Shown here: in pieces, positions 6,404-26,818 of the stretch | Layout: each line of letters opens with the position of its first letter | Numbering within the stretch: position 1 is the stretch's first letter | Source: Patescibacteria group bacterium | GTDB lineage: Bacteria > Patescibacteriota > Patescibacteriia > UM-FILTER-42-10 | Length of the DNA stretch: 64,000 nucleotides | Direction of reading: 5' to 3' | Assembly: GCA_041664365.1 (NCBI GenBank) | Contig: JBAYKW010000006.1 | Span: 7,286 to 71,285, forward strand | Position numbers and translations under genes: made by a program | The notes under the pieces: model-generated | The model's database searches: none | Told to the model about the DNA's origin: nothing | What the model saw: the letters and a program-made list of their open reading frames with translations, nothing else

Positions 6404-6417
6404 GGGTTCAGTTCTGC

Positions 6418-7829: not shown

Positions 7830-7924
7830 GTATCGCACGAAGCTCGGGCTCGAATCGTACACACGATTTGACCCGGGCATTTTTTATTTTACCTAAAACA
7901 AAAGCAACCGGTTATTATTCAAAC

Positions 7925-8029
7925 CGGTTGTTCGTCGGAGCGCGATTTCTAAACACTTATGGATTCCCGCTTTCGCGGGAATGACAGGGGGATACTAATT
8001 GTCATCCTCGGACTTGATCCGGGGATCCA
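7925..8029. repeat. Dispersed repeat R1 (partial) + R2 hairpin pair (TGGATTCCCGCtttcGCGGGAATGACA ... TGTCATCCTCGGacttgatCCGGGGATCCAT), copy B
   Basis: ~70-bp imperfect palindrome made of two sub-hairpins. Homologous copies lie at 19866-19940 and 26658-26749, with inverted partial copies at 9622-9645 and 9728-9794. Confidence 0.5.
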
Positions 8030-8131
8030 TTATTTTTTTGAATAAGTACAATAACAATTGATATGGTTGGTCAATCCGCGCAAATATGCTACATTAAAAA
8101 CCAGACCCTTTAATCATTAACGAAAAAATTA

Positions 8132-9439: not shown

Positions 9440-9556
9440 TTTCGGAATATAAAGCTTTAGCTTTATAAAAAAAGGTAAGGCTAAAGCCTTACATTCCATG
9501 TTGTTTTATTTTTTAGGGTAAGTTACCACCACACCCAAATTGGGTGTGGGGGCTTT

Positions 9557-9794
9557 CCAAAAAACCCAGATTTAATAATCCCAAACCGGTCGCATGTCGG
9601 AGCGCGCGGGCTGGTTTTAATTTGGATTCCCGGGCCAAGCCCGGCCAATTTGAATAAATCTAAGCCATACATATTTAATGCAAAAATTGGACGGGCAAGC
9701 CCGAGAATAACAGACTTACTCCCTCCTTGTCATTCCCGCGCAGGCGGGAATCCACCATTACTATAGCCCGACTATTGTTTTAGCGGGAATCCAC
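9557..9794. repeat. Composite repeat block: R1 copy C, then R2-like hairpins in inverted orientation
   Basis: CCAAAAAACCCAGATTT...AAACCGGTCGCATGTCGGAGCGCG (R1); TGGATTCCCGGGCCAAGCCCGG and TGTCATTCCCGCGCAGGCGGGAATCCA (R2-like). It separates the GSDH gene from the AT-rich island. Confidence 0.45.
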
Positions 9795-11809: not shown

Positions 11810-12848
11810 TAATATTATTAATATGTTTTTTAATCGTGTTTCCAATAATTTCACCAAGAACAGGGGGTACTGAATTACCAATATGCCTGGCGATAGTAGT
11901 CATGGATTTTATCGGACCAAAATCATAATTCACTGGAAAAGTTTGAAGCAGAGCACCTTCCCTTAAAGAAAGAGCCCTATTCTGTGTGGGGTGCCCAAAG
12001 CGTCCGGATCCTAAGTTAAAAAATTGAGTTGTTATTGTTGGTGCGACATTATCCCAACCCATCCGTCCATAAACTGATGTGTAAGTTTGCCCACTTTCTT
12101 TTTTATAGCAATCCGGTAACAGTTTTTTTTCCCAGTCTCGCCACGTACCATTTTGTTTTGATTGTTTTATTCTCTGAATGTTAATTTTAGAAAGGTTCTT
12201 GGCTTTATGTAATGGGTCATACTTAGAGGTTTGGCCAGCTTTGATTGGTGGCAATTTTTTTATAATTTCTTTAACAGTTACAAATGTTTCTTTAGTATGT
12301 GTTGGCTTTGGTATTTTTATTTCTCCAAGCCTTGAGGCAAGTAAAATTAATCTGCTTCTATTTTGCGGAGCACCGTAATCTGGTACGTATACTATTTTAT
12401 AATCAATATGATAATTATTTTTTTCAAGTACGTCTAAAAACTGTTTAAATATGTTAGTCTTTACTATTCCGCGTACATTCTCCATTGATACTATTTCAGG
12501 AAGTGTATCATCTATTATTTTTCCAAAGTAGCTGAGAAGATCCCACCTGTCGTCGTGATTTTTAACTTTATTTTTGAAAGAATGGGAAGAAAAAGGTTGA
12601 CATGGCGCACAGCCGACTAATACTTTGATAGCATTTGGGCTATATATTTTTTGTATTTCACCAGATCCATATTTTGTTAAATCAGCATTAATAAATTTTG
12701 TTTTATTATTCTTTTCGTATGCATATTTACACGTTTCATCATTATCAATACCAGCTATGACATTAATCCCAGATTTTTTCAATCCATAAGTCAATCCTCC
12801 TATTCCACAGAATAAGTCGATAGTCTCAATTTTAATTTTTGTTTGCAT
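11796..12848 (-). CDS. DNA (cytosine-5)-methyltransferase, Dcm family
   Basis: Motif I DLFCGIGG, motif IV GCAPCQPFS (PCQ catalytic Cys), motif VI ENV, C-terminal LSLREGALLQTFP and GNSVPPVL (motifs IX/X). 350 aa. Confidence 0.9.
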   Translation of the reverse strand: MQTKIKIETIDLFCGIGGLTYGLKKSGINVIAGIDNDETCKYAYEKNNKTKFINADLTKYGSGEIQKIYSPNAIKVLVGCAPCQPFSSHSFKNKVKNHDDRWDLLSYFGKIIDDTLPEIVSMENVRGIVKTNIFKQFLDVLEKNNYHIDYKIVYVPDYGAPQNRSRLILLASRLGEIKIPKPTHTKETFVTVKEIIKKLPPIKAGQTSKYDPLHKAKNLSKINIQRIKQSKQNGTWRDWEKKLLPDCYKKESGQTYTSVYGRMGWDNVAPTITTQFFNLGSGRFGHPTQNRALSLREGALLQTFPVNYDFGPIKSMTTIARHIGNSVPPVLGEIIGNTIKKHINNINVTK

Positions 12849-12945
12849 AGAATCTATGCGGTTACTAAATGTTTTATAAAATAATTTTCATAACAAAGCG
12901 GAAAAAACACCTCATTGTCCCTGCTATAAAAGGAATTAAAAATTT

Positions 12946-13359
12946 TTATCCCCAAGTAGCGGGCTTATTTTTTAGCTCTTCAATTTCCTTTTTTACTTCA
13001 TCAAGCGCACCCACATTAGATGTACTTGGGTTTAATTCAATTTTGGGCTTTGCTTTGATCTTATCGACCAGATCTTTTGTGCTTTTGTGCGATCGTTTCC
13101 AAGCGATGCCGAAAATAATTGCGAGAACCAGTCCCAATATGCCAAAAATGTAGTTCAAAAGTAATGACCAGGTAAACTCGGGTGCATTTTGTTTGGTGGT
13201 TTCAGCGATTGCATTTATAAATGTTGGTAACCCAAAGAAAAGACTTGCAATGCAAACGTCTCTCCATAGAGGTTGCGCTTTTTCAACGATATTATTCAGT
13301 TCATCTTCAGTAACTGAATAGCAGGTTCTGTCCGGATCGTGATGTATATAATCAGTCAT
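12946..13359 (-). CDS. Hypothetical 2-TM membrane protein
   Basis: Two hydrophobic helices (VCIASLFFGLPTFINAI; LLLNYIFGILGLVLAIIFGIAW); lysine-rich coiled C-terminus. Start placed at the Met giving an 8-nt overlap (ATGACTGA) with the upstream gene stop. The alternative track start is 13380. Confidence 0.4.
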   Translation of the reverse strand: MTDYIHHDPDRTCYSVTEDELNNIVEKAQPLWRDVCIASLFFGLPTFINAIAETTKQNAPEFTWSLLLNYIFGILGLVLAIIFGIAWKRSHKSTKDLVDKIKAKPKIELNPSTSNVGALDEVKKEIEELKNKPATWG

Positions 13360-13621
13360 CTTTCTTTTTTGCGTTAACATCTATACCAAGAGCTCCTAAT
13401 GCGAACAAGCGCAAATTGCCACAATTGTTGCAAATTAACCCAGCACACGGTATTTGTGGCTGAGGAAGACGGAAGCCTCCGGATAAATCTGAAACGGGAG
13501 CTGAAACCGCCTGATCGACAACGGCCCAATTATTTTTGTGGCATATTTCGCATTGAGGCATAGCGCCTTTTTCTTTGAGCTTATCTAAAATAAGCTGTTT
13601 GTAGTCATTTGGTAGTGGCAT
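13352..13621 (-). CDS. Small zinc-ribbon protein (CxxC...CxxC)
   Basis: 89 aa with CEIC (res 24-27) and CNNC (res 65-68) pairs. Translationally coupled to the downstream membrane protein. Confidence 0.45.
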   Translation of the reverse strand: MPLPNDYKQLILDKLKEKGAMPQCEICHKNNWAVVDQAVSAPVSDLSGGFRLPQPQIPCAGLICNNCGNLRLFALGALGIDVNAKKKDD

Positions 13622-13725
13622 TTTGTAATTATATTATTACATTTGGTTTAACAAATTTCTGTTTGATTCACTATTGCTATTTATTATTTGGTACTTATCT
13701 TATTTAAGCTATGATATCAGTTTAA

Positions 13726-13786
13726 CACCAAGGTAGTAACTGGGCAATAATCACAAATAACCCCACCTTTTTGCCGAAAGCGGGGA
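13726..13786 (+). repeat. Dispersed repeat family R4, copy 1 (CACCAAGGT..TGGGCAATAATCACAAATAACCCCACCTTTTTGCCGAAAGCGGGG)
   Basis: Related copies at 16374-16416 and 16899-16945. Confidence 0.45.
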
Positions 13787-13791
13787 AGCGC

Positions 13792-13822
13792 TTGACTATG
13801 ACGTAGCGTGATAGTGTATGTT
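13792..13822 (+). promoter_or_regulatory. MerR-type promoter: TTGACT - 19-bp spacer containing quasi-dyad CTATGACGtagCGTGATAG - TATGTT
   Basis: -35 at 13792-13797 and -10 at 13817-13822, spacer exactly 19 bp, with an imperfect inverted repeat inside the spacer. It lies 64 nt upstream of the MerR-family gene. Confidence 0.45.
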
Positions 13823-13885
13823 ATAATAAGGTGGTCTTATACATATATAGATAGGTCGACACCCTAAACCATTATCTGCATTAAT

Positions 13886-14650
13886 ATGCCTTATACCGTA
13901 AAACAACTGGCCGATCTGGCGGGAATCAGTGTACGGACACTGCATTTCTACGACCAGGCGGGAATCCTGAAACCGGACCGGACGAAAGCCAACGGCTACC
14001 GGTATTATGAGGAAAAGGAGCTTCTGAAGCTCCAGCAGATTTTGTTTTTTCGCGAGCTGGATTTCTCCATTCAGGAGATAAAGAAGATTATCTCCGCGCC
14101 GGATTTTGACATGCGCACGGCGCTAAAGGGTCAGCGCAAACTGATTGAGCTCAAGAAAAATCGTCTGGAACGATTGGTGGAAACCATCGACCGGACTATT
14201 CAAAAAATTAATAAGGAAAAAAATATGGCAGACCAAGATTTATACGGCAACTTTTCCAAAGAAGAAATGGACCGTTACACGGAAGAAGCCCGAGAGAAGT
14301 GGGGCAATACCGATGCTTATAAACAGTCCCAAGAGAGAGTGAAGAAAATGGGCAAAGCGGGTTTAAACCAAGTGCTGAAAGAATCGGGACTCTTAACTCA
14401 AGAAATCGCAGAGTGCATGAAAAAGGGCGAGGACCCGAAAGGTGAGACGGTGCAAAAGCTGATCGCCAGGCACTATGACGGACTGCGGGCTTTCTACGAG
14501 CCAAACTTCCAGATCTACCGTGGGCTGGCCGGTGCGTATATCGGCGATGACCGCTTCAAAGCCAACTATGAAAAAGTAGCGGAAGGGCTGGCACAGTATA
14601 TGCACGACGGCATGATCCATTACTGCGACACGCACGAATCGGAAAAGTAA
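13886..14650 (+). CDS. MerR-family transcriptional regulator with TipAS-like antibiotic-recognition C-terminal domain
   Basis: N-terminal MerR HTH (YTVKQLADLAGISVRTLHFYDQAGILKP...NGYRYY), coiled-coil linker, C-terminal TipAS-like helical domain. About 50% GC (above the host). Confidence 0.8.
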   Translation: MPYTVKQLADLAGISVRTLHFYDQAGILKPDRTKANGYRYYEEKELLKLQQILFFRELDFSIQEIKKIISAPDFDMRTALKGQRKLIELKKNRLERLVETIDRTIQKINKEKNMADQDLYGNFSKEEMDRYTEEAREKWGNTDAYKQSQERVKKMGKAGLNQVLKESGLLTQEIAECMKKGEDPKGETVQKLIARHYDGLRAFYEPNFQIYRGLAGAYIGDDRFKANYEKVAEGLAQYMHDGMIHYCDTHESEK

Positions 14651-14667
14651 TCTGGCAGTATCAAAAA

Positions 14668-14703
14668 AACAGGCGCAGGTAATCCCCGCGCTTGTTTTAT
14701 TTA
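14668..14703 (+). terminator. Rho-independent terminator of the MerR/TipAS gene
   Basis: AACAGGCGCaggtaatccccGCGCTTGTT followed by TTATTTAT. A near-identical copy lies at 16443-16473. Confidence 0.6.
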
Positions 14704-14775
14704 TAATTTACCGACAGCTATTCGGTGAGGTTGGTCGGAATGCAATGAAGAGAATAAGTTGATTTAGAGGTACTA

Positions 14776-15099
14776 TTACTTACCATATTTATCGATAAGA
14801 AAACCCAACGCTGAACCAAGAATTAAAGTCATGATAAAAATCGGAATCAGTGAAAATGGTTCTTGCCAACCAATGATAATAGCCGAAGGCAATAAAACAA
14901 GGAATGAGATAATTATACCTTTTGCAATACCTTTTATTTTAAGATTACTTGTCGCGATTAAAAAACCAGAAATTATCCAAAGCGAGAAAGCCGACAGGTT
15001 GGCGTCCCAGGTTAATTTTTGAAGAACCATGGGAACAACATCAATGATTCCGGCTAAAGTCCCAAGTAAAATCCCAAGTTGGGTTTTCTTCATATTCAT
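14776..15099 (-). CDS. Small polytopic membrane protein
   Basis: 107 aa, three or four hydrophobic helices, AT-rich. Confidence 0.4.
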   Translation of the reverse strand: MNMKKTQLGILLGTLAGIIDVVPMVLQKLTWDANLSAFSLWIISGFLIATSNLKIKGIAKGIIISFLVLLPSAIIIGWQEPFSLIPIFIMTLILGSALGFLIDKYGK

Positions 15100-15230
15100 A
15101 ATGGTATCCTCAATTAATTAAAACTTAAATAACTTTCTCTGAGTGTCTCAAAATCAATAACGCCATATACAGACGAGCGTATGCCCGCCTTGACTCGCCG
15201 TCTGCGGCGAGGCAGGCTACGTTGCTAATT

Positions 15231-16166
15231 TTACCTTTTTCTTTCCCGGCCTTTTATATATCTATCCAAAGCCTCTTTTGAGCTTAGCCAATTTCGTCCT
15301 TCTTTGTAGGCCTCGAGTTTGCCCTGTCTTACTAGTAAGTTTAAATATTTAGCTGAGTAAGAAGTTTTTTTTGTTAGTTCCTTCAAAGAAATTAATTTTT
15401 CCTTATTTTTTTTAGAGGATAAAGTCTTTAAGTATATATCAAAAGACCGCTCAACTGTTTGAGCTATGAAGTTAACTAGTGATGCATAATCACCGGTATC
15501 GGCTTTAGCCAAGACGTTGTAGTATTTTTTTCTATCATTTTTTAGTATGATAGTTAGAGGATAGCCACTTTTCATCAATATTAGATTCATAGCTAATCTA
15601 GCCGTACGGCCATTGCCGTCAAAAAATGGGTGAATCTGTACCAATTTGTGATGAAATAAAGCAGCCAGTTCAACCGTTGGGATCTTGCTGTTATTTTTTA
15701 GCCAAACTAATAAACTTTCCATTAATTTCGGCACTTCAATAGCATGGGGTGGTGTATGCTTAGCACCCATGATAAAAACATTGGCAGTTCTGTATTTTCC
15801 AGCTTGTTCTTTTTCTGTTTCTTGGACAACAATTTGGTGGATAGAGCGGATTAACCTTTCAGAAATAGTATTTTGTTTGTTTTTATCAACCAAATCATAG
15901 AGATATTCTAAAGCTGCATATTGGTCTTTAGTTTCCAGGTGGTCTTTTAGAGGCTTGCCTTTAACTGTAATGCCCTCATTGATAACTAAAAAAGTTTCTT
16001 TGAGGGTTAGACTATTACCTTCTATAGCATTAGAATTATAGGTCATTTCTAACCTTAGTTTTTCTTGCAGTTTTTTGACTGCTACTTTAGGCAATGGCCG
16101 TTGTTTATTTAATTCTTTTCTTTTAGCTTCCAAACGAGAGGCGATTGTTTTGTGCAGATATTTCAT
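15231..16166 (-). CDS. Fic/DOC family protein with C-terminal HTH-like domain
   Basis: Fic motif HPFFDGNGRTARL (HPFx[DE]GNGR). 311 aa. The 8-bp inverted repeat ATGGTATA-N15-TATACCAT at 16171-16215 just upstream is a candidate operator. Confidence 0.85.
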   Translation of the reverse strand: MKYLHKTIASRLEAKRKELNKQRPLPKVAVKKLQEKLRLEMTYNSNAIEGNSLTLKETFLVINEGITVKGKPLKDHLETKDQYAALEYLYDLVDKNKQNTISERLIRSIHQIVVQETEKEQAGKYRTANVFIMGAKHTPPHAIEVPKLMESLLVWLKNNSKIPTVELAALFHHKLVQIHPFFDGNGRTARLAMNLILMKSGYPLTIILKNDRKKYYNVLAKADTGDYASLVNFIAQTVERSFDIYLKTLSSKKNKEKLISLKELTKKTSYSAKYLNLLVRQGKLEAYKEGRNWLSSKEALDRYIKGRERKR

Positions 16167-16373
16167 AGTAATTGTTTAATATGGTATAAGTAGTTTATTA
16201 CAGTATACCATATTAAGGAAAAAAGTAAAGTTAGCAATGTAAGCGGACCCTGAGCGCGACCCCGAGCGTATTCAAGGGGGGGGGAAGTCGAAGCGGCCGG
16301 GAGCGATTTCTGCACAACTGGTTATTATACAAAGCTGACTTCACGGTGAAAGTAACATAATCCCTACTAGGAA

Positions 16374-16473
16374 GCAATAATCATAAAAAACCCCAGCTTT
16401 TTCTGAAAGCGGGGGGACGGAAAAGTAATCTTGTATTATAAAAACAGGCGCAGGTAATTCCGCGCTTGTTTTT
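16374..16473 (+). repeat. Empty-cassette remnant: R4 copy 2 fused directly to the last codons (..GGAAAAGTAA) and terminator of a merR/tipAS-like gene
   Basis: GCAATAATCATAAAAAACCCCAGCTTTTTCTGAAAGCGGGGGG + ACGGAAAAGTAA + AACAGGCGCAGGTAATTCCGCGCTTGTTTTT. Compare 13742-13786 plus 14641-14703. The interior of the gene is absent. Confidence 0.45.
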
Positions 16474-16508
16474 GTCCCATCATTGGGGATTTTATTGGAT
16501 ATTAATTT

Positions 16509-16817
16509 CTATTTTTCTTTATTAATCCACTTTTTATCAATTGCATCTTCCAGATCAATATCCAATAGGTGTGCGTTTAATATCGCCATACCAACAACAT
16601 CTGCAAGTTCTTTTGATAATTCTTTTTTGGATATTTCTGCAGATACAAGCTTTTTGGTTCTGCATTTTTTTCTATGTATTAATATGGCTTGCGCAAATTC
16701 TCCCAACTCTTCAACTAATTTAATTAATGCGAAATCCTCGTCTATTTTTATGTTATGCCTTTCTCCATACTGCATGGCATTTTTTACTACCTTTTGTTGT
16801 AATTCTTTGAATTCCAT
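16509..16817 (-). CDS. MazG-like nucleotide pyrophosphohydrolase domain protein (small)
   Basis: 102 aa; EELGEFAQAI motif typical of MazG/NTP-PPase all-alpha domains. Confidence 0.5.
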   Translation of the reverse strand: MEFKELQQKVVKNAMQYGERHNIKIDEDFALIKLVEELGEFAQAILIHRKKCRTKKLVSAEISKKELSKELADVVGMAILNAHLLDIDLEDAIDKKWINKEK

Positions 16818-16898: not shown

Positions 16899-16945
16899 CA
16901 CCAAGGTTATGAGTGGGCAATACATACGAAAATCCCACCTTTTTG
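16899..16945 (+). repeat. Dispersed repeat family R4, copy 3
   Basis: CACCAAGGTTATGAGTGGGCAATACATACGAAAATCCCACCTTTTTG, compared with 13726-13773. Confidence 0.4.
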
Positions 16946-16971
16946 ATGATGGCGGAGACATGGACTATTGA

Positions 16972-17028
16972 CCCCGTTTGAGGAATTCCGCAAACGGGGT
17001 TGACATAACCGATATCTAGTGTTACCAT
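16972..17028 (+). promoter_or_regulatory. Palindrome CCCCGTTTGaggaattccGCAAACGGGG + TTGACA-N16/17-TTACCAT promoter for GC-rich island 2
   Basis: Same palindrome-abutting-(-35) architecture as 6296-6354. Followed by a ~100-nt leader and the SD TAGGAGG before the ATG at 17117. Confidence 0.45.
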
Positions 17029-17116
17029 GTCCGGTTCGTGTTTGGTGTGTCCCGCTGCCTTGATCACTTGTTGTAGCAATACAACAAACAGCTCTTAGGA
17101 GCCTTAGGAGGATGCA

Positions 17117-17389
17117 ATGTCACGATCCGTGTTCCGCGTGGACGAAAAAACCGAATGCGCGGTCGGTTGGGATGATCCGCTCGGCACGTTTTTCGGTCAG
17201 ATCTACAAAGTGGACCAGGAAGGCGAGCGCGTCGAGGAGGACGAGGACGGCAACGACGGGACGATCCTTTGGGTCGGCACGAAGCCGGCGGAGATCCGCA
17301 CCGTGGACGAGCTTGCGCGCAGGCTCCTGCCCCACGCTATCCTCACGCACGCCATCCACGCCGAGCTCTTCTCCATCGAGTGCGACTAG
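17117..17389 (+). CDS. Hypothetical small acidic protein (GC-rich island 2)
   Basis: Strong SD (TTAGGAGGATGCAATG); ~62% GC; 90 aa; no recognisable motifs. Confidence 0.5.
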   Translation: MSRSVFRVDEKTECAVGWDDPLGTFFGQIYKVDQEGERVEEDEDGNDGTILWVGTKPAEIRTVDELARRLLPHAILTHAIHAELFSIECD

Positions 17390-17572
17390 CACAACTCCTA
17401 CCGAGATCCAAGGAGTATAAATAAGGGTCTTCTTTTTTTGCAAAAAAACACAGTTGTTGAGTAGTTCGTTATGTGTTTAGATATTACCTATGTTCATTGA
17501 CACTAGTAGGTTTTTGTAGTAAAAGTTAGGAACCTGCACAATCACGTTTTCCAAATCGGGGGGAGGTGAATC

Positions 17573-17833
17573 ATGTCGGAGCAAAAGGTTGTTCCAGTCA
17601 CCGAAGGAGATGGGGGCAATGAGCTGAGGGCGGTACGTTTTCAGATCACAGACATCCTGTTTCAGCTTATCGCGAGGAGACTGGAAGAACTTGTGGTTCA
17701 GGATGTGGCTCGACAGGCTAAAACACCGTGGGAACAGCTTCAGGGGATAAAGGTAGAACGGATCGAACTGCGCCCCTCTCTCGAGGGACCCTTGATGTTC
17801 GTTAATCCGTACTACGATGATGATGATGACTAA
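17573..17833 (+). CDS. Hypothetical small protein with C-terminal poly-Asp tail
   Basis: SD GGGGGGAGGTGA 5 nt from the ATG; 86 aa ending YYDDDDD. Confidence 0.5.
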   Translation: MSEQKVVPVTEGDGGNELRAVRFQITDILFQLIARRLEELVVQDVARQAKTPWEQLQGIKVERIELRPSLEGPLMFVNPYYDDDDD

Positions 17834-17890
17834 GCTCCGACGGCTTCCAGTCGCGCAAGTAGCCAGGATTCAATGTCAGGAGGACGTCCC

Positions 17891-18100
17891 ATGTCGTCGG
17901 AACTCAGGGCAGTGATCATCAAGTACACTGCCATGCAGCTCGGTACGAGCGAGAGTAAAGTCACCTCGGACACGGTGATTCCGGACATCTACTGTCTGGT
18001 CAGATTCGTGTCCATTGAGACCGAGCGGTACGCGAAGAACATCAAGGATATCACCGCGAAGCACACCGTGGCGGAGGCCATCGCATTGTTCGAAGAGTAG
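17891..18100 (+). CDS. ACP-like (phosphopantetheine-attachment-like) small protein, paralog 1, lacking the conserved Ser
   Basis: SD AGGAGG 7 nt before the second ATG (MSSELRAV..). Layout ..IIKYTAMQLGTSESKVTSDTVI..........HTVAEAIALFEE parallels ACP (..IAEQLGVDEEEV...DSLDTVELV...TVQDAIDYI). The DSL serine position reads DIYCL. Confidence 0.5.
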   Translation: MSSELRAVIIKYTAMQLGTSESKVTSDTVIPDIYCLVRFVSIETERYAKNIKDITAKHTVAEAIALFEE

Positions 18101-18133
18101 AGGGCGTTTGAAAGACGAATGAGGAGGGTGTTC

Positions 18134-18340
18134 ATGGACTCAAATCTCAGGGCAGTGATCATCAAGCGCACCGCCCAGCAGCTTGGCGTGAGCGAGGATG
18201 ATGTCGCTATGGACACGGTGATCCCGAACATCCACGCCCTGGTCACAACCGTGGCCGCCGAGACCGGCGAGATCGGTTTCTGCAATGACATCCGAAAGAA
18301 GCACACCGTGGCGGAAGCCATCGCATTGTTCGAAGAGTAG
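18134..18340 (+). CDS. ACP-like small protein, paralog 2 (tandem duplicate; identical C-terminus KKHTVAEAIALFEE)
   Basis: SD GAGGAGGG before the ATG (MDSNLRAV..). About 55% identity to paralog 1. The Ser position reads NIHAL. Confidence 0.5.
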   Translation: MDSNLRAVIIKRTAQQLGVSEDDVAMDTVIPNIHALVTTVAAETGEIGFCNDIRKKHTVAEAIALFEE

Positions 18341-18372
18341 GGGTCGGAAGTCTAGACCCCTTTTTTTATTTG
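18341..18372 (+). terminator. Rho-independent terminator (GGGGTC-ggaagtcta-GACCCC-TTTTTTTATTT)
   Basis: Perfect 6-bp stem plus T7 run, immediately 3' of the ACP-like pair. It directly precedes the P2 promoter. Confidence 0.6.
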
Positions 18373-18374
18373 GA

Positions 18375-18404
18375 TTGACGGAAAATAAGCATTTATGATA
18401 AGTT
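18375..18404 (+). promoter_or_regulatory. P2 promoter TTGACG-N18-TAAGTT (copy 1)
   Basis: Duplicated at 21778-21806 (TTGACA-N17-TAAGTT). Both are followed by GATATRC and a conserved ~60-nt leader ending AAAACGAGGGAGA..CC-ATG. Confidence 0.45.
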
Positions 18405-18476
18405 GATATACCCTTGGCCGTTTCATTGGACTTGGGCCGGTATCGTTGAGGTATTGGCAAAACGAGGGAGAGATCC

Positions 18477-18866
18477 ATGTTCAAAGCCCCACGGCCTTAC
18501 TTTGAGGGAGCGCCTACTACCCCTGAGGAGCGTGCGGTTCTGCAAAATGCCGGCTACGTACACATCACCGGCCTTTGGTGCCACACTCGTGACCATGGTA
18601 TCAGGGAAGACGGCTACTATGTCGGCGAGAAGCTTTTTCACAGTCATCTGGGAACATGGCATGACTACTGCGAGCAGTCGGTGATCGTCACCGAGCGGGG
18701 CGAGGTCTGGCTGAAGAGCGGCAGTGGCGTTGCCTCTGTCGTCCACCAGTTCTGCCCGAACGGGCAGAGTGACTACTGGCCATTCGGCCTGGTTAGGCAC
18801 CAGCCGATCGCCGCGATTACTCGCCGGAGAATCGATCCGAATGATGGTCTGATCTACGTCCCTTGA
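18477..18866 (+). CDS. Hypothetical 129-aa protein, family X copy 1 (MFKAPRPYFEGAPTT..)
   Basis: Paralog of 21875..22261 (about 60% identity). Conserved promoter, leader, SD and terminator modules. About 60% GC. Confidence 0.6.
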   Translation: MFKAPRPYFEGAPTTPEERAVLQNAGYVHITGLWCHTRDHGIREDGYYVGEKLFHSHLGTWHDYCEQSVIVTERGEVWLKSGSGVASVVHQFCPNGQSDYWPFGLVRHQPIAAITRRRIDPNDGLIYVP

Positions 18867-18921
18867 TTGCACATCGCCGTTCATACGGCACCCCGCTAAT
18901 CCAAACTAGCTGGGTATTTTT

Positions 18922-19287
18922 TTAGTCTTTGTTTTCAATTTTCTTCGCAACTGTGTGGTTGAGGTCCTTGCGCCAGTTGTCTACATATGTTTTTGCCCCG
19001 CCCAATAGACCGTCGCAGAATGCGGCTACGTCTTGGCCGGTGATATCCAAAACTTGCTTGCTGTCTGCTGCGCCTTCTTCAAAAAGTCCTAGCACACCAT
19101 CAAGAATATCTATTGTATCCATTCCGCTGCCGGCGGAGAGTTTCCACATATATTTTTTTATCTCATCATATGCAAAATGGTAGTCGTTGGGTAGCTTTTT
19201 GGCGCGTGCTTCCATTCTACGCCATCTCTTTTTATCTCCGGTTACTTTTTTCCAGAAGTCGTTGACTGTTTTTAGTATGTTAGCCAT
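18922..19287 (-). CDS. DUF1048-like protein (PadR-associated)
   Basis: 121 aa, helical. It overlaps the upstream PadR stop by 8 nt. This pairing is commonly seen downstream of PadR-family regulators. Confidence 0.45.
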   Translation of the reverse strand: MANILKTVNDFWKKVTGDKKRWRRMEARAKKLPNDYHFAYDEIKKYMWKLSAGSGMDTIDILDGVLGLFEEGAADSKQVLDITGQDVAAFCDGLLGGAKTYVDNWRKDLNHTVAKKIENKD

Positions 19288-19609
19288 TTGATTGTTCCTT
19301 TAGTTTGTTAATACTTTTTGTGACGAACTGCCATTTTGCCCAGAAGGTGGACAGTTCTTTCCGTCCCGCGCTGTTGAGCGTGTAGAATTTGCGCACCGGT
19401 CCGACGTCGGACGATTTTTTCTTGATGTTTACCAGCTTGCCATTCTCGAGGCGTAGCAGAATGGTATAGACCGTTCCTTCCACCACGTCCGTGAAACCCA
19501 GCTCGCGGAGCATGGATGCTATTTCATAGCCGTAGGTTTCCTTCCGGCTGATGATTTCCAGGATACAGCCCTCGAGTACGCCTTTTAACATTTCTGTAAT
19601 GTTTTCCAA
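19280..19609 (-). CDS. PadR-family transcriptional regulator
   Basis: Winged-helix signature (KGVLEGCILEIISRKETYGYEIASMLRELGF...EGTVYTILLRLENGKLV). 109 aa. Confidence 0.8.
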   Translation of the reverse strand: MENITEMLKGVLEGCILEIISRKETYGYEIASMLRELGFTDVVEGTVYTILLRLENGKLVNIKKKSSDVGPVRKFYTLNSAGRKELSTFWAKWQFVTKSINKLKEQSNG

Positions 19610-19639
19610 AGTATTTCTCCTTTCAATTAAACTTGCTTA

Positions 19640-19690
19640 ATATGTAGTATCACTTACTACCACTACATAGTATCACGTAGTAGATTTGGT
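19640..19690. promoter_or_regulatory. Candidate PadR operator: ATGTAGT-N13-ACTACAT inverted repeat plus 9-bp direct repeat TAGTATCAC x2
   Basis: Sequence ATGTAGTATCACTTACTACCACTACATAGTATCACGTAGTA lies 30-80 nt upstream of the PadR start. PadR proteins bind ATGT/ACAT-type inverted repeats. Confidence 0.4.
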
Positions 19691-19790
19691 GTCAAGGGAT
19701 AGGATTTAGGCCCGCCCGGCTCGCCCTTGGCGATGCCAAGGCGGACGGGGGATAGGGGTGAGGGGTTAGGTTTTTTTAGGGTAGGGTTGC

Positions 19791-19940
19791 GTTCCGCGCT
19801 CCAGAAAACCCGATTACTATAATCCTAGACTGGTCGCTTGTCGGTGGACGTATTCTGAAAACATATGGATTCCCACTTTCGTGGGAATGACAGAGGGAGG
19901 GGTAACACTTGTTATCCTCGGGCTTGGCCCGGGGATCCAT
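19791..19940. repeat. Composite repeat copy D: R1 (19801-19847) followed by R2 hairpin pair (19866-19940)
   Basis: Near-identical in structure to copy B (7925-8029) and, in inverted order, to copy E (26658-26818). Confidence 0.5.
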
Positions 19941-19988
19941 GCAATTAATCTGATGCTGATATTAGCTAAAATTAGCCCTTTCATTATT

Positions 19989-20048
19989 GACCTCGTTAGA
20001 GAAGTTTCTCTAAACGGGGTTGACAAAAACCCAATTTAGGTCTATACT
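19989..20048 (+). promoter_or_regulatory. P1 promoter: palindrome CCTCGTTAGAGAAGTTTCTCTAAACGGGG + TTGACA-N17-TATACT (copy 1)
   Basis: -35 at 20020-25 and -10 at 20043-48. Followed by a ~175-nt conserved leader containing a 10-bp inverted repeat TCTCCTTGTT...AACAAGGAGA. Confidence 0.5.
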
Positions 20049-20222
20049 CTGCAGTTAACATTGAGATACTATGTAATAAATTTAAATCTCCTTGTTTGAG
20101 CCTGTGATCAAGAACAATCATGTGTTCTAACAAGGAGATCTACTCCTTGATAATACCGGCTTCGCAGTCCTACTATATCGATTCTTCACGAGTCCGAGGG
20201 TCCAAGTCCGAAAGGGTCAGTC

Positions 20223-20753
20223 ATGCAAAACAACGCAGGGTCCAAAATGACATTCGCCGAGTCTTCGTCGGCGTACTGGAGGAAGGACACTGTCCCTAAG
20301 CTGATCCCTACGCAGGTCATTGTGACCTTCATCGTGTGGGTGCTCTTCGCCGTCACGGTCAGTTCAATTCCCATCGAGTTGGATGGCCCCGCCATCATGC
20401 TCACGATCGCCATCGCGGTGCTCATGAGTGCGTGCGCGGTTATGACGGCTACCAAGGTCGCGTTTTCCGCCGGCTGGATTGGAACCGTGGCCGCCATGGC
20501 GTTTACCACGATCGCCACTGTCGCTGGTGCGAAGTCCCGTTGGCTTGGAGAACTCGATGCATTCAGGTGGCCAGCTGCGACGGCGATTACGTTCTTAATC
20601 GCGCTTGCGCTCGCGCTGGTGATTGGGAGCATCTGCTTCGCCATCGATGACGGTGACCATGCCGGCTGGGCCCTCAAGAAGAGGATCAGTTTCGCGTGCG
20701 TCGTGCAGTTTCTTGTCACGACGATCCCCCTCATCCTCATTCTTTGGAGGTAA
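20223..20753 (+). CDS. Hypothetical polytopic (4-TM) membrane protein, GC-rich cassette
   Basis: Starts GTCAGTC-ATG-CAAAAC as in the duplicate cassette. 176 aa; Ala/Val/Ile-rich helices. Confidence 0.55.
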   Translation: MQNNAGSKMTFAESSSAYWRKDTVPKLIPTQVIVTFIVWVLFAVTVSSIPIELDGPAIMLTIAIAVLMSACAVMTATKVAFSAGWIGTVAAMAFTTIATVAGAKSRWLGELDAFRWPAATAITFLIALALALVIGSICFAIDDGDHAGWALKKRISFACVVQFLVTTIPLILILWR

Positions 20754-20860
20754 TATCGCACATTTCAAGACCGGAGCATGTCTTTCAAGAACTGCTCACC
20801 CGCCAGGTAACTGACGGGTTTTTTCTTTGCCAAAAAAGTTATTCCTTTAAACGGGCTTGA

Positions 20861-20917
20861 CCCCGTTAGAGAAGTTTCTCTAACGGGGTTGACAAAACCC
20901 TGTTTTAGGTGTACATT
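20861..20917 (+). promoter_or_regulatory. P1 promoter copy 2: perfect palindrome CCCCGTTAGAGAAGTTTCTCTAACGGGG + TTGACA-N17-TACATT
   Basis: -35 at 20889-94. The leader is about 85% identical to copy 1 through to the start codon. Confidence 0.5.
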
Positions 20918-21103
20918 ATGCAGTTAAATAGAATTCTGCAAAGAAACTATATTAACGAATTCAAATCTCCTTGTTTGAGCCTGCGATCAAGAATAATCGT
21001 GTGTTCTAACAAGGAGGTTCGCTCCTTGATAATACTGGCTTCACGGTCCTACTGTAATCGCTTCTTCTCGAGTTCAGAGGGTCCAGGTCCGAAAGGGTCA
21101 GTC

Positions 21104-21622
21104 ATGCAAACGACGAGTTACGCTTACAACCACACAACCCGCGGGAGCATAATGCTCCTGCACATCTACCAGATCATCATGACGGTGGTCGTCATGGCGG
21201 TCTACCTTCTCGCCTACGACAAGATGATTGCCACTGCTGGCCCGCTGGGTCCATTGACCGAGTGTGGGTTCGCGGTGGCTGTCGCCTGCGCGGTCCTTAC
21301 CGCTTCTGCGGCAGGGGCGACGGCTCACGTCGTCTATGGGCGAGGAATCTGGATGGGGATCATCCTGTTCGTCATCGCAGTCGCCGGGGCATTCGGTACT
21401 GCATTCATGACGATCGCTGCGATGGTCGTGGCGCCACCGTTGGTGCCGGCTATCATGATCGTTTCAAGTGCAATTGTCGTGTCACTCGTGGTGTGGTCCT
21501 TGGCCGATATCGGGTCAAAAATCACCCACTCCAGGGACGAGACGCCGAGAAAGATTCTGTCTGCGATCCTGCAGACGATCGTCATCAGTGCCTTCGTCCT
21601 GACGCTCAGGCTCTGGTGGTAG
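21104..21622 (+). CDS. Hypothetical polytopic membrane protein, second P1 cassette (start re-assigned to MQTTSYAY..)
   Basis: The track ORF starts at 20909 inside the conserved leader. The homologous position of the cassette-1 start codon (GTCAGTCATGCAAA) is 21104. 172 aa, 4 TM. Confidence 0.5.
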   Translation: MQTTSYAYNHTTRGSIMLLHIYQIIMTVVVMAVYLLAYDKMIATAGPLGPLTECGFAVAVACAVLTASAAGATAHVVYGRGIWMGIILFVIAVAGAFGTAFMTIAAMVVAPPLVPAIMIVSSAIVVSLVVWSLADIGSKITHSRDETPRKILSAILQTIVISAFVLTLRLWW

Positions 21623-21777
21623 TCTCTCCGCGAGATGTCCATCATCCACCACCCTCATCGTTTGGAGGTGATACATGTACATTCAAGACCGGAGCACGTC
21701 TTTCAAGAACTGCTCACCCGCCAGGTAACTGACGGGTTTTTTCTTTGCCCCCCACACCTGTGAACAAGTGTGGGGGG

Positions 21778-21806
21778 TTGACATAAAATCACCTTTGTGA
21801 TAAGTT
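21778..21806 (+). promoter_or_regulatory. P2 promoter copy 2, preceded by palindrome CCCCCCACACctgtgaacaaGTGTGGGGGG
   Basis: See 18375-18404. Confidence 0.45.
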
Positions 21807-21874
21807 GATATGCTTCTGGAGGCTTTGTCGAACCTGCCGGTATCGCTAATGCCGGCAAAACGAGGGAGAAAACC

Positions 21875-22261
21875 ATGTTCAAAGTGCCACAGCCTTACTT
21901 CGAGGGCGCACCGACGACTGCCGAAGAACGCAGGGTTCTGCAATGTGCCGGCTACATACACATGACCGGCCTGTGGTTCCTTACCCCTGACCGTGGCCAC
22001 GGCGTCCACGTTAATTACATGGGCCAGGGCATCGTCCAGGAAGAGATGGGCACGTGGAATGAATTCGACGGACAGTCGGTGATCGTCACCAAGCGGGGCG
22101 AGGTCTGGATGAAGACCGGCAGTAGTGTGACTTCCGCCACCGCACTGCTTTGTCCAAACGGACGGAGCGACTACAAGCCTTTCACCCAGACTGACCGGCC
22201 GATTGACGGAATGATCCGCCGGATCGCCGATCCGAACGACGGCTTGACCTACGTTCCTTGA
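21875..22261 (+). CDS. Hypothetical 128-aa protein, family X copy 2
   Basis: Paralog of 18477..18866. Conserved 3' module TGATYGCACAYYGCCGT..ACGGCACCCCGCT...GGGTATTTTTTT (terminator). Confidence 0.6.
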   Translation: MFKVPQPYFEGAPTTAEERRVLQCAGYIHMTGLWFLTPDRGHGVHVNYMGQGIVQEEMGTWNEFDGQSVIVTKRGEVWMKTGSSVTSATALLCPNGRSDYKPFTQTDRPIDGMIRRIADPNDGLTYVP

Positions 22262-22381
22262 TCGCACACTGCCGTATACACGGCACCCCCGCTCATACAA
22301 ACAGCGGGTATTTTTTTACAAAAAAATAATCCCAGTCTAAGGATTATTAATAGTATTACGTATTACAATTACAATTTACAA

Positions 22382-22876
22382 TTATAATACCTTGGCGTAG
22401 AGATAAGCGTCATGCAGTTCATCACCGCGCCTGGCCGCTTTGCGCATTAGTCCTTCTTTTTTGTATCCGCATTTGATTGCTACTTTTTGACTGCCGGTAT
22501 TTTTCGTATTCATTTTAATTTCAATTCTAACCAATCCCAGTTTCCGGAATCCAATTTTCTCCAGCAGTTTCACCGCTTTGGTGGTGATACCCCTGCCCCA
22601 ATAGGTTTCGTCCAGAAAATACCCGATCTCCCCGCACAGTTTGTTATCCGGGTTGATTTTAATCCCGCAACCGCCAACCATCTTTGTGCCGTACATGATA
22701 GCGAAGTGCTGGTTCAGGCTTTTTTTATTCTGCTTGGCGTGTTTCTGCAGGATTTTTCTTTCCTCCGCAACTGATTTCGGGCAGATCCGGAAATAAATAA
22801 AATTGGGGTTGTTGAGAATCTCATAAAACCTTTTCGCGTCGGATACTTTTTGTTTGCGGATTGTTACTTTGAGCAT
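22382..22876 (-). CDS. GNAT-family N-acetyltransferase (RimJ/RimL-like)
   Basis: 164 aa; acetyl-CoA binding region (GYFLDETYWGRGITTKAVKLL) typical of ribosomal-protein N-acetyltransferase-like GNATs. Confidence 0.7.
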   Translation of the reverse strand: MLKVTIRKQKVSDAKRFYEILNNPNFIYFRICPKSVAEERKILQKHAKQNKKSLNQHFAIMYGTKMVGGCGIKINPDNKLCGEIGYFLDETYWGRGITTKAVKLLEKIGFRKLGLVRIEIKMNTKNTGSQKVAIKCGYKKEGLMRKAARRGDELHDAYLYAKVL

Positions 22877-22887
22877 TAATTAGTCGG

Positions 22888-23571
22888 CTATGTTTTTTTA
22901 GTACCTTTTTTTACAATTTTTTTCTCAATGCTTTTTAAATCCTGCAGAATATGTTGATATGATCCTATTGATCTCATAACACATAATCCCGGAAGTGTCT
23001 CACCAGTTGCTCTGTTCGGTACATATGCTGAAATTATGCCGGAGAACTTTGGCTCACCATTTTTATCAGCATAAAAAACGGGTCCGCCACTAACTCCATT
23101 AATTGCGACTCCGTCAACTAAATATGATTCTTCCTTGGGAATGTGGCAACTGATATGACCGGAAAAAAAACAAAGATCATTAGCAGCTACGGACGGAAAA
23201 CCGCACCAACCGACTTCAAAACCTTGTTGAAGAATTTCGTCTTTGTCTATCAGGTCCAAAGGTTTTGGTATTATTGGAAGATCCTTATTTTTAAATAGGA
23301 TAAATGCCACATCTTTCTCAGGATATCTTGTAATTGTTCTGTCGTTGTGCTTTAAAAGGACAGATTTTCCTGACTGATGGTGAATAATTCTGATTGGTTC
23401 CTCCCAGTCATCTTCATGAGAAATAACATGATCCGCAGTAGCAATACCAAGGAAATTGGTTTTTTCAGAATAAAAAATCTGAAATCCGGTTCCTGATACA
23501 CTCGGAGTTTTGATTTTGAAAATATATGGTGTAATTTTCATTAAAGGATTATGCCAGTTTATTTGTTCCAT
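22888..23571 (-). CDS. Trypsin-like (S1 family) serine peptidase domain protein, no signal peptide
   Basis: Catalytic triad context: TADHV (His), DVAFILF (Asp), GVSGGPVF (Ser in the GxSGGP motif). Confidence 0.55.
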   Translation of the reverse strand: MEQINWHNPLMKITPYIFKIKTPSVSGTGFQIFYSEKTNFLGIATADHVISHEDDWEEPIRIIHHQSGKSVLLKHNDRTITRYPEKDVAFILFKNKDLPIIPKPLDLIDKDEILQQGFEVGWCGFPSVAANDLCFFSGHISCHIPKEESYLVDGVAINGVSGGPVFYADKNGEPKFSGIISAYVPNRATGETLPGLCVMRSIGSYQHILQDLKSIEKKIVKKGTKKT

Positions 23572-26657: not shown

Positions 26658-26818
26658 TGGATTACCGCTGGAGTTTATCCCCGCGAAGGCGGGGACGGGA
26701 ATGACTTGTTGTTTTGATTGTCATCATCGGGCTTGACCCGGGGATCCATTACAATAATATATTGAACCAGCGCTCCGACAAGCGACCAGTTTGGACAACC
26801 AAAATCGGGTTTTCTGCA
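26658..26818. repeat. Composite repeat copy E: R2 hairpin pair (26658-26749) then R1 in inverted orientation (26769-26818)
   Basis: Reverse complement of 26769-26818 = CTGCAGAAAACCCGATT..AAACTGGTCGCTTGTCGGAGCGC. Inverted relative to copy D. Confidence 0.5.

What the first reader, a model, noticed from the sequence alone, without database searches (positions are those of the whole stretch)
18341..18920. P2 cassette duplicated in two different islands: promoter, leader, 129-aa family-X protein and terminator conserved as a unit
Two copies, 18341-18920 and 21745-22320, each contain the same parts. These are an upstream GC palindrome/terminator; TTGACR-N17/18-TAAGTT; GATATRC; a ~60-nt leader with CCGGTATCG...GCCGGCAAAACGAGGGAGA; a 128/129-aa protein (MFK.P.PYFEGAPTT.EER.VLQ.AGY.H.TGLW...SVIVT.RGEVW.K.GS.V....CPNG.SDY.PF); and a conserved 3' tail ending in an intrinsic terminator. 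The protein identity (~60%) is lower than the flank identity. The unit follows the ACP-like pair in one island and the two membrane-protein P1 cassettes in the other. This behaves like a mobile or duplicated accessory module of unknown function.
Basis: seen in the sequence. Interest (0 to 1): 0.6.

Follow-up and report, generated by a model that had tools for sequence, protein, structure and literature searches.

The report
Duplicated orphan gene unit in Patescibacteria
Two old, diverged copies of a self-contained gene (own promoter, leader, 129-residue protein, terminator) sit in a variable region of a Patescibacteria genome; the protein belongs to a small undescribed family, and nothing shows the unit is mobile.

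Summary
Two units, 18375-18923 and 21778-22317, share a TTGACR/TGATAAGTT promoter, a ~70-nt leader with a hairpin next to the ribosome-binding site, a 129/128-aa ORF (57% identical) and a two-hairpin 3' tail.

They are not an assembly artefact and not recent. Nucleotide identity is about 71% and dS about 0.8, as large as between this genome and its nearest sequenced relative. Overall dN/dS is 0.25-0.36: purifying selection, about five times more relaxed than housekeeping genes, with no overall sign of diversifying selection.

The claim that flanks are more conserved than the protein compares unlike measures. Nucleotide identity is 0.72 (5' region), 0.71 (CDS) and 0.78 (tail). The flanks are still far above synonymous-site identity (~0.5), so they are constrained.

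The protein is a divergent member of an undescribed family of ~130-aa soluble proteins: 111 clusters, with no match in Pfam, NCBIfam, PHROGs, PADLOC or PDB. The AlphaFold model is confident (pLDDT 91) and has no Foldseek match.

Family genes always stand alone, with their own promoter, leader and terminator, and usually have higher GC3 than their neighbours. I found no recombinase, attC, terminal repeats or phage/plasmid relatives. Function is unknown. This is an ordinary duplicated accessory gene of a new family.

The parts
18340..18367 (+). Terminator hairpin (GGGGTC..GACCCC plus T-run) of the preceding 73-aa gene. It lies upstream of copy A and is not homologous to the element upstream of copy B.
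   Evidence: Read directly; does not align with copy B.
18375..18404 (+). Copy A promoter: -35 TTGACG, 18-nt spacer, extended -10 TG-A-TAAGTT.
   Evidence: Conserved in winA, winB, L001 and L005. The -10 is weak (3/6) and the consensus scan did not flag it. The assignment is inferred.
18405..18476 (+). Copy A 5' leader (~70 nt): GATATAC, ACCCUUGG (can pair with the SD), hairpin 18436-18458, A-rich stretch, SD GAGGGAG 18464-18470.
   Evidence: Alignment and RNAalifold; single folds. Only the SD-proximal hairpin is consistently predicted, and z-scores are not significant.
18477..18866 (+). Copy A CDS, 129 aa (NCBI WCW66_04475). It is the faster-evolving paralogue.
18867..18923 (+). Copy A 3' tail: TTGCACA, hairpin GCCGU-UCAU-ACGGC (18876-18889), intrinsic terminator stem 18891-18914, then UAUUUUUUU.
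   Evidence: MFE -18.5 kcal/mol, z -3.31.
21748..21777 (+). GC palindrome CCCCCCACAC..GUGUGGGGGG abutting the -35 box of copy B. It is specific to this copy. L005 has a different palindrome at the same place.
   Evidence: I1.
21778..21806 (+). Copy B promoter: -35 TTGACA, 17-nt spacer, extended -10 TG-A-TAAGTT.
21807..21874 (+). Copy B 5' leader with hairpin 21836-21856 and SD 21862-21868. Its 5' half is the most diverged of the four sequences.
21875..22261 (+). Copy B CDS, 128 aa (NCBI WCW66_04500). It is closest to the single copies of the related genomes (71% and 67%).
22262..22317 (+). Copy B 3' tail: hairpin 22270-22285, terminator stem 22288-22308, then UAUUUUUUU.
   Evidence: MFE -17.5 kcal/mol, z -3.54.

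Best explanation
These are two ancient paralogues of one self-contained, monocistronic gene. Each is transcribed from its own sigma-70-type promoter (TTGACR, 17-18 nt, TG-n-TAAGTT). Each has a ~70-nt 5' UTR whose conserved hairpin sits directly 5' of an A-rich stretch and a strong ribosome-binding site. Each ends in a two-hairpin 3' UTR whose second hairpin is an intrinsic terminator.

The flanks look 'conserved as a unit' because only the functional parts of the transcription unit have survived a divergence that has nearly saturated synonymous sites. The conservation does not mark the ends of a mobile element.

The duplication happened in place, within the variable rpsF-uvrC region of this Patescibacteria lineage, about as long ago as the split from its closest sequenced relative. 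The two copies then diverged asymmetrically. Copy A kept the ancestral promoter and leader but changed its protein faster. Copy B kept the ancestral protein but changed its leader.

The product is a soluble, cytoplasmic alpha/beta protein. It is a divergent member of an undescribed ~130-aa family whose genes always stand alone. The family is named as Patescibacteria wherever its source names an organism, apart from one contig labelled Sphaerochaetaceae.

Inferred, not shown: the invariant polar residues (H29, T31, T72, E76, W78, R117, D120) form a ligand-binding or catalytic pocket, and the protein has an accessory, fast-evolving role rather than a core one.
For: Anatomy and conservation in four sequences.

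Tail folding: z -3.3 and -3.5. The tail pattern occurs twice against 0.00 expected.

The duplication is old: dS(A,B) is 0.82-0.86, against 0.83-0.94 for either copy vs L001/L112, and 0.5-1.2 for housekeeping genes between the two genomes.

Purifying but relaxed selection: dN/dS is 0.24-0.36, against 0.03-0.07 for UvrC, RecA, EF-P and SSB.

Flanks constrained: 0.66-0.84 nt identity against ~0.5 at synonymous sites.

Positional conservation:
- orf90 then P2 in L001
- P1 tail, then P2, then GNAT in L005
- P2-B then GNAT in the window

Asymmetric divergence: L001 sides with A 11:0 in the promoter and 5' leader, and L005 sides with B about 68:26 in the CDS.

The family is real: 111 clusters at E<=1e-3 and 31 at E<=1e-10, nearly all 110-165 aa, with shared motifs.

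AlphaFold2 with 40 sequences gives pLDDT 90.9 and pTM 0.86.

Family genes stand alone with their own near-consensus promoter, a 30-100 nt leader (60 nt or more in most) and a terminator, in unrelated contexts.
Against: - No transcript data. The -10 box matches the consensus at only 3 of 6 positions, and the consensus scans flagged neither promoter nor terminator.
- Leader folds are not better than shuffles (z +0.5 to -1.7). Only one pair in the leader shows a double change.
- With synonymous sites near saturation, the timing of the duplication is imprecise.
- A is slightly closer to L001 (63%) than to B (57%). This fits an old duplication, but it also fits recombination or lateral replacement.
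- GC3 is 0.68-0.72 against 0.43-0.56 in core genes. The family's GC3 exceeds its neighbours' median in 12 of 14 loci. This is not explained by simple vertical inheritance.
- The proposed pocket rests on conservation alone. The model coordinates could not be inspected, and no fold match was found.
Confidence: 0.6

Rival explanations
1. The unit is a laterally mobile, moron-like cassette: a promoter-gene-terminator module that moves between sites and genomes, with the conserved tail or promoter-proximal hairpins as recombination substrates.
For: - Family genes are GC3-richer than their neighbours in 12 of 14 loci.
- They sit at unrelated positions: between trmD and rplJ, after rpoC, next to type I R-M, near atpD and glyA.
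- They always carry their own promoter and terminator.
- The P2 tail also follows an unrelated 93-aa gene in L005, at 79-85% identity.
- The window region is a variable, defence-rich island.
Against: - No integrase or transposase among the scanned ORFs.
- No attC-like sites.
- No terminal repeats or target duplications shared by the copies.
- Homology ends at the -35 box and the T-run.
- Position is conserved among relatives.
- No relatives in IMG/VR, INPHARED or PLSDB, and no PHROG hits for the family or the island orphans.
- Copy divergence equals genome divergence.
Confidence: 0.18
2. The protein is a conflict protein, such as an orphan immunity, anti-defence or host-interaction factor. The two copies are kept because they recognise different targets, so selection is diversifying at surface loops.
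For: - dN/dS is about five times that of housekeeping genes.
- Divergence is concentrated in two segments: residues 35-66 (dN 0.60) and 85-112 (dN 0.48). The core 67-84 is almost invariant.
- The units lie among R-M, SoFic, MazG-like and protease genes.
- The family has a patchy distribution, and one member lies beside a type I R-M system.
Against: - dN/dS is below 1 in every segment and pair.
- No hit to 5027 defence models.
- No partner toxin or effector gene is conserved next to family genes.
- Many family members sit between housekeeping genes.
Confidence: 0.2
3. The duplication is an assembly artefact, a very recent duplication, or is homogenised by gene conversion.
For: None for an artefact. 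A block of codons (68-80) has almost no synonymous change (pS 0.08), which could suggest local conversion.
Against: - Copies are 71% identical in the CDS, with dS 0.82.
- Their flanking genes differ.
- The same low-synonymous block is also conserved in L001 and L005, which are other genomes, so within-genome conversion does not explain it.
Confidence: 0.02

Closest known systems
Phage 'morons' (autonomous promoter-gene-terminator units inserted between conserved genes; named from my own knowledge of lambdoid-phage genomics)
   Same: A single ORF bracketed by its own promoter and an intrinsic terminator. Its base composition differs from its neighbours (GC3 0.68-0.72 against about 0.5). It sits between otherwise conserved genes and is dispensable in relatives.
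   Different: It is not in a prophage. No phage-family hits were found for the protein, its family or the neighbouring orphans, and no relatives in phage or viral collections. Its position is conserved among related genomes.
Integron gene cassettes
   Same: Short, same-strand, single-ORF units lie side by side in a variable region. Conserved structured sequence follows each ORF.
   Different: Each unit has its own promoter. The tail is two separate small hairpins plus a U-run, not an attC imperfect palindrome. No RYYYAAC...GTTRRRY pair is present. No IntI-like gene was found among the ORFs scanned.
CPR/Patescibacteria-enriched protein families of unknown function (Meheust et al. 2019, PMC6744442; seen in the search listing only, paper not read)
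   Same: A small protein with no Pfam or NCBIfam model. Four of the five members whose source names an organism are labelled Patescibacteria.
   Different: It is a rare, patchily distributed family (111 clusters at 50% identity), not one of the widely distributed co-occurring families that paper's abstract says it focuses on. One member carries a Sphaerochaetaceae MAG label, so restriction to Patescibacteria is not proven.
5' UTR cis-regulatory RNAs (riboswitches, protein-binding leaders)
   Same: A long leader lies between a strong promoter and the SD. In six wider-family loci a 47-nt two-helix element shows covariation.
   Different: The window's leaders do not match that model. No Rfam family matches either. 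The window leader's folds are no better than shuffles.

Membership tests
Undescribed ~130-aa protein family (defined here by profile; no public accession) | Full-length profile-HMM similarity to many independent clusters of similar size | tested here: met
   111 clusters at E<=1e-3 and 31 at E<=1e-10; lengths mostly 110-165 aa; matches span about residues 8-127.
Undescribed ~130-aa protein family (defined here by profile; no public accession) | Core motifs G-[FY]-[VI]-H-[VI]-T-G-L, V-I-V-T-x-x-G-E-V-W, P-N-G and R-x-x-D-P | tested here: met
   L22, G26, H29, T31, G32, L33, G59, T72, G75, E76, W78, P94, G96, P102, R117 and P121 are present in both window copies.
Undescribed ~130-aa protein family (defined here by profile; no public accession) | N-N-G (positions 64-66) and F-V-P-x-S-N-G-E (100-107) motifs, present in about 60-80% of members | tested here: not met
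   The window clade has YCE/FDG and Y-x-P-F... instead. It is a divergent subfamily.
Integron gene cassette | attC site (RYYYAAC ... GTTRRRY imperfect palindrome) at the 3' end of the cassette | tested here: not met
   A regex search of 16900-22400 on both strands found 0 matches. The tail folds as two separate hairpins.
Integron gene cassette | Promoterless ORF expressed from Pc, with an adjacent intI integrase | tested here: not met
   Each unit has its own conserved -35/extended -10. No integrase domain was found in the ORFs scanned between 0.3 and 35.7 kb. ORFs beyond 36 kb were not scanned.
Phage moron | Own promoter and terminator flanking a single ORF, with deviant composition | tested here: met
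   The promoter is inferred from conservation, not measured.
Phage moron | Located within a (pro)phage genome | tested here: not met
   No PHROG hits for the family or for 10 neighbouring orphans. No phage or viral relatives.
Transposable element / MITE | Terminal inverted repeats and target-site duplication at the ends of the repeated unit | tested here: not met
   Only a 13-nt, 85% inverted match in copy A, absent from copy B. Homology ends at the -35 box and the T-run.
Known anti-phage defence component (PADLOC) | Match to a defence-system protein model | tested here: not met
   0 of 40 family members hit at E<=0.01.
Known cis-regulatory RNA (Rfam 15) | Covariance-model match of the leader or the tail | tested here: not met
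   Nothing at gathering score or at E<=1 within 16900-22400, apart from unrelated chance hits.
Intrinsic (Rho-independent) terminator | GC-rich stem-loop immediately followed by a U-run at the 3' end of the gene | tested here: met
   Folds of -16 to -18.5 kcal/mol in five tails, followed by UAUUUUUUU. The simple scan missed them because of a bulge and 8-9 nt loops. Function is not testable here.

The most novel reading that the evidence does not exclude
The family is a new protein fold. It is carried by a laterally spreading, self-sufficient promoter-leader-gene-terminator module specific to Patescibacteria. Its expression is controlled by a new class of structured 5' leader: the 47-nt P1/P2 element with covariation in six family loci, of which the window's leader would be a reduced derivative. 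In that reading it would be a new ligand- or protein-responsive riboregulator coupled to a new small enzyme or binding protein.
Probability: 0.1. Interest if true: 0.65.

Novelty: new member of a known kind. Interest (0 to 1): 0.3.

Why it matters
As it stands, this adds one more undescribed small protein family to the large 'dark matter' of Patescibacteria. It also documents a clean case of an old in-place duplication with asymmetric divergence, in which one copy changed its protein and the other its leader.

It would matter more under any of three conditions:
- The confident AlphaFold model proves to be a new fold.
- The structured leaders in front of family genes prove to be a new cis-regulator.
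- The GC3-rich orphan genes of these genomes (P1, P2, orf90, orf380 and others) prove to be a common laterally exchanged gene pool.

Each of these can be tested with existing metagenomes and metatranscriptomes.

Tried and rejected
- Structure prediction from the 4-sequence alignment was useless (pLDDT 41.6). It worked only after the profile search supplied 36 distant relatives.
- Sequence libraries: Pfam, NCBIfam, PHROGs, PADLOC and PDB gave no hits. The DDB1 hits at E 0.22 and the 3846-aa repetitive protein P0014 are additive weak-motif noise.
- The promoter 16-mer scan of viral contigs returned 82 hits, all taken as chance from the short pattern without inspecting them.
- The tail scan of GTDB representative genomes found only the L001 contig, plus chance hits in high-GC taxa.
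- The leader covariance model built from wider-family loci did not match the window leaders. I therefore do not claim the window leader belongs to that motif.
- An SD-sequestering alternative fold of the window leader (ACCCUUGG with GAGGG) is possible, but folding statistics do not support it.
- An apparent complementarity between the conserved CDS block (AGCGGGG) and the terminator arm (CCCCGCT) is not kept in L005, so I dropped it.
- A chimeric (recombinant) origin of the L001 copy was considered. The informative-site pattern fits asymmetric divergence better.

Full report
**1. Observation**

The window carries two units that align from the -35 box to the terminator T-run. Copy A spans 18375-18923, with its ORF at 18477-18866 (129 aa). 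Copy B spans 21778-22317, with its ORF at 21875-22261 (128 aa).

Shared features:
- -35 box TTGACR
- 17-18 nt spacer
- TG-A-TAAGTT followed by GATATRC
- a leader with a hairpin (GCCGGUAUC...GGC) directly 5' of CAAAACGAGGGAGA
- the ORF
- a tail made of TYGCACA, a GCCGU-N4-ACGGC hairpin, and a CCCGCU...AGCGGG stem followed by UAUUUUUUU

The proteins are 57% identical (E 3e-52). The tail pattern occurs exactly twice in the window, against 0.00 expected.

In A the element is the terminator of the preceding 73-aa gene. In B it is the P1 terminator plus an unrelated palindrome abutting the -35 box.

The simple consensus scans flagged neither the promoter (the -10 matches 3 of 6 positions) nor the terminators (bulged stems, loops of 8-9 nt). 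These assignments rest on conservation and on folding (tail z-scores -3.3 and -3.5).

**2. Source and relatives**

Copy A is NCBI WCW66_04475 and copy B is WCW66_04500, both from a Patescibacteria MAG. Only two close relatives exist among 5.8 billion proteins:
- P0002 (132 aa), in a syntenic Patescibacteria contig (L001, L002, L112)
- P0003 (129 aa), in short Logan contigs (L005, L006)

Both relatives carry the same promoter, leader and tail.

In L001 the single copy lies between orf90 and DUF1003/GNAT. In L005 it follows a P1-type terminator, and is itself followed by an unrelated 93-aa gene that has the same tail (79-85% identical), then GNAT.

In the window, copy A lies downstream of orf90 (with orf86 and two 73-75-aa genes inserted between). 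Copy B lies directly upstream of GNAT, with DUF1048-PadR and two P1 membrane-protein units between the two copies.

**3. Age and selection**

| Region, A vs B | Nucleotide identity |
|---|---|
| promoter + leader | 0.72 |
| CDS | 0.71 |
| tail | 0.78 |

Synonymous sites are only about 50% identical (pS 0.50-0.51), so the flanks are under constraint.

| Comparison | dS | dN/dS |
|---|---|---|
| A vs B | 0.82-0.86 | 0.35-0.36 |
| A or B vs L001/L112 | 0.83-0.94 | 0.25-0.30 |
| UvrC, RecA, EF-P, SSB, window vs L001 | 0.48-1.2 | 0.03-0.07 |

The duplication is therefore about as old as the split of the two genomes. The gene is under purifying selection that is roughly five times more relaxed than for housekeeping genes. 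There is no overall diversifying selection.

Divergence is concentrated in residues 35-66 and 85-112.

Informative sites show asymmetric divergence. L001 sides with A 11:0 in the promoter and 5' leader. L005 sides with B about 68:26 in the CDS. B is 71% and 67% identical to the L001 and L005 proteins, whereas A is 63% and 53%.

An assembly artefact is excluded.

**4. The protein**

No Pfam, NCBIfam, PHROG or PADLOC model matches, and no PDB sequence matches.

An exhaustive profile search found 111 clusters (50% identity level) at E<=1e-3 and 31 at E<=1e-10. Nearly all are 110-165 aa and match over their full length.

Family signature:
- L22
- G-[FY]-[VI]-H29-[VI]-T-G-L
- G59
- V-I-V-T72-x-x-G-E76-V-W78-L
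- C/A-P-N-G
- F-V-P-x-S-N-G-E
- L-L-x-R117-x-A-D-P

The window clade keeps the core but lacks the N-N-G and S-N-G-E motifs, so it is a divergent subfamily.

AlphaFold2 with four sequences failed (pLDDT 41.6). With 40 sequences it gave pLDDT 90.9 and pTM 0.86, an alpha/beta domain with a five-stranded meander flanked by helices.

No signal peptide or hydrophobic segment is visible in the sequence.

**5. Behaviour of the family elsewhere**

In every locus recovered, the family gene stands alone among unrelated neighbours:
- between trmD and rplJ (L108)
- after rpoB-rpoC and before ftsK (L132)
- near atpD (L118)
- near glyA (L116)
- beside a type I R-M system (L134)
- upstream of MGMT/UDG (L130)

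In most of the 17 loci tested the best upstream match is a near-consensus TTGACA-N17-TATAAT promoter (score 10 or more of 12 in 11 of 17). It is followed by a 30-100 nt leader (60 nt or more in most, usually with a hairpin before the SD) and a terminator-like hairpin.

The gene is GC-richer than its contig in 15 of 19 loci (by 5 points or more; in 17 of 19 by any margin), and its GC3 exceeds the neighbours' median in 12 of 14 loci.

Five members carry an organism name from their source. Four are labelled Patescibacteria (P0001, P0002, P0115, P0094). One is labelled Sphaerochaetaceae, on a contig whose ftsK...recA order resembles the window's.

No relatives were found in INPHARED phages, PLSDB plasmids or IMG/VR.

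**6. The surrounding region**

Genes in the rpsF-uvrC interval fall into three compositional classes:

| Class | GC3 | Members |
|---|---|---|
| Core | 0.43-0.56 | housekeeping genes |
| AT-rich | 0.23-0.36 | type II REase + C5 methylase, SoFic, MazG-like, trypsin-like peptidase |
| GC3-rich orphans, no family hits | 0.68-0.84 | orf177/180, orf90, the 73-75-aa pair, P1a/b, P2-A/B, orf380 |

Several GC3-rich orphans are shared in position with L001: orf90 at 74%, orf380/355 at 34-38%, and P2. The AT-rich genes differ between the two genomes. In this comparison the orphans are the more stable component.

None of the orphans hits a phage family.

**7. Mobility tests**

- No integrase or transposase domain in the ORFs scanned.
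- No attC-like core pair.
- No terminal repeats shared by the copies.
- Homology ends at functional boundaries.
- The tail is absent from viral contigs. Among GTDB representative genomes it is present only in the L001 contig.

The shared tail on an unrelated gene in L005, the deviant GC3, and the scattered positions of family members keep a moron-like lateral-transfer reading alive, at low probability.

**8. Mechanism, with status of each step**

Shown:
- two diverged, intact, constrained ORFs
- conserved non-coding flanks
- stable tail hairpins followed by a U-run
- membership of a wider family
- a confident model

Inferred:
- transcription from the TTGACR/TG-n-TAAGTT promoter
- a 5' UTR of about 70 nt whose hairpin next to the SD tunes translation or mRNA stability
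- termination at the second tail hairpin
- the first tail hairpin as a stability or protein-binding element
- a ligand-binding or catalytic pocket formed by the invariant H, T, E, W, R and D residues

The biological role is unknown. I favour an accessory, fast-evolving cytoplasmic function.

**9. Verdict**

This is a new member of a known kind: a paralogous stand-alone accessory gene encoding a protein family that has not been described. Interest is modest (0.3). The by-products are more unusual than the finding itself, namely the structured leader in part of the family, the P1 units with near-identical flanks and 27%-identical proteins, and the GC3-rich orphan class.

Noticed in passing
window 19987-20835 and 20857-21753 (P1a ORF 20223-20753, P1b ORF 21104-21622): The two P1 membrane-protein units show a much stronger 'conserved flanks, divergent ORF' pattern than P2. 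The 5' flank (hairpin, TTGACA promoter and a ~200-nt leader) is 83% identical. The last 68 nt of the tail are 99% identical. The proteins are only 27% identical, with dS about 2. The same tail precedes P2 in L005.
   Followed up: partly
L113 1846-1891, L119 576-623, L111 1710-1757, L117 1423-1469, L115 3889-3935, L131 188-235: Six wider-family genes are preceded by a 47-nt leader element. It consists of P1 (8-10 bp), an A/G-rich 5' internal loop (AAUAGCAUAGG) and P2 (GGUGCC-AGCA-GGCAACC). Ten of 15 pairs show double changes. The covariation score is 0.425 against 0.269 when shuffled (0 of 500 shuffles as high). There is no Rfam match, and the model does not match the window.
   Followed up: partly
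window 16968-17005, 19987-20025, 20857-20894, 21748-21783: Several island units begin with a GC hairpin whose 3' arm ends in GGGG directly abutting the -35 TTGACA (CCCCGUU..AACGGGG-TTGACA; CCCCCCACAC..GUGUGGGGGG-TTGACA). L005 has a different 13-bp-arm palindrome at the same place. Structure is conserved but sequence is not.
   Followed up: no
window 7880-8030, 19784-19940, 26690-26749; partial copies at 6399-6467 and 9540-9608: A ~150-nt repeat family lies at the borders of GC-rich segments. It contains CAAACYGGTCGCWTGTCGGAGCGCG, a GGATTCCCRCTTTCGYGGGAATGAC hairpin and TCCTCGGGCTTGRYCCGGGGATCCAT. On the opposite strand it translates to the spurious 'MDPR.KPEDD'-type peptides.
   Followed up: partly
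window 10088-16817 and 22888-23571: This is a defence-type, AT-rich gene set (GC3 0.23-0.36). It comprises a type II restriction enzyme (HATPase_c_3) and a C5 cytosine methylase with overlapping ORFs, SoFic, a MazG-like protein and a trypsin-like peptidase (LmuA / RT-protease-like hit). TipAS-MerR and PadR-DUF1048 regulator genes lie nearby.
   Followed up: partly
window 18678-18716 and 22076-22114 (codons 68-80 of both P2 copies): This block has almost no synonymous change (pS 0.08 against about 0.5-0.7 elsewhere). Eight of 11 invariant-residue codons are identical in all four sequences, against 13 of 43 outside the block (Fisher p 0.015). A second such run covers codons 21-32. The cause is unknown; codon preference or an RNA-level constraint are possibilities.
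   Followed up: partly
They are 63% identical, with dS 0.42 and dN/dS 0.83, the highest ratio in the region.
   Followed up: partly
window 33375-33900: Around tRNA-Leu(CAG) (33618-33704) there are extra tRNA-Leu pieces. 5' halves (GGGGATGTGGTGAAACTG...) lie at about 33375 and 33478. A 3' half ending CCCCATCCCCACCA lies at about 33846-33889. A repeat of the variable arm lies at about 33777. GC-rich hairpins sit between them. This may be a disrupted or intron-containing tRNA, or scars of integration. ARAGORN and Rfam call only one tRNA.
   Followed up: partly
L005 730-1011 with tail 1012-1066: An unrelated 93-aa orphan gene carries the same 3' tail as P2 (TTGCACACUGCCGUUCCAUACGGCACCCCUGCUAAU...GGGUUUUUUU), 79-85% identical. 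The tail is therefore a reusable 3' module in this lineage.
   Followed up: partly
window 39351-40211 (inside ORF 35907-40268, 1453 aa): A repeat with ~150-nt period lies within a very large ORF, with recurring GATCTGGACGGTGATGG and GTATTCGACAAAGACGGCAA motifs. It looks like a repeat-domain surface protein.
   Followed up: no
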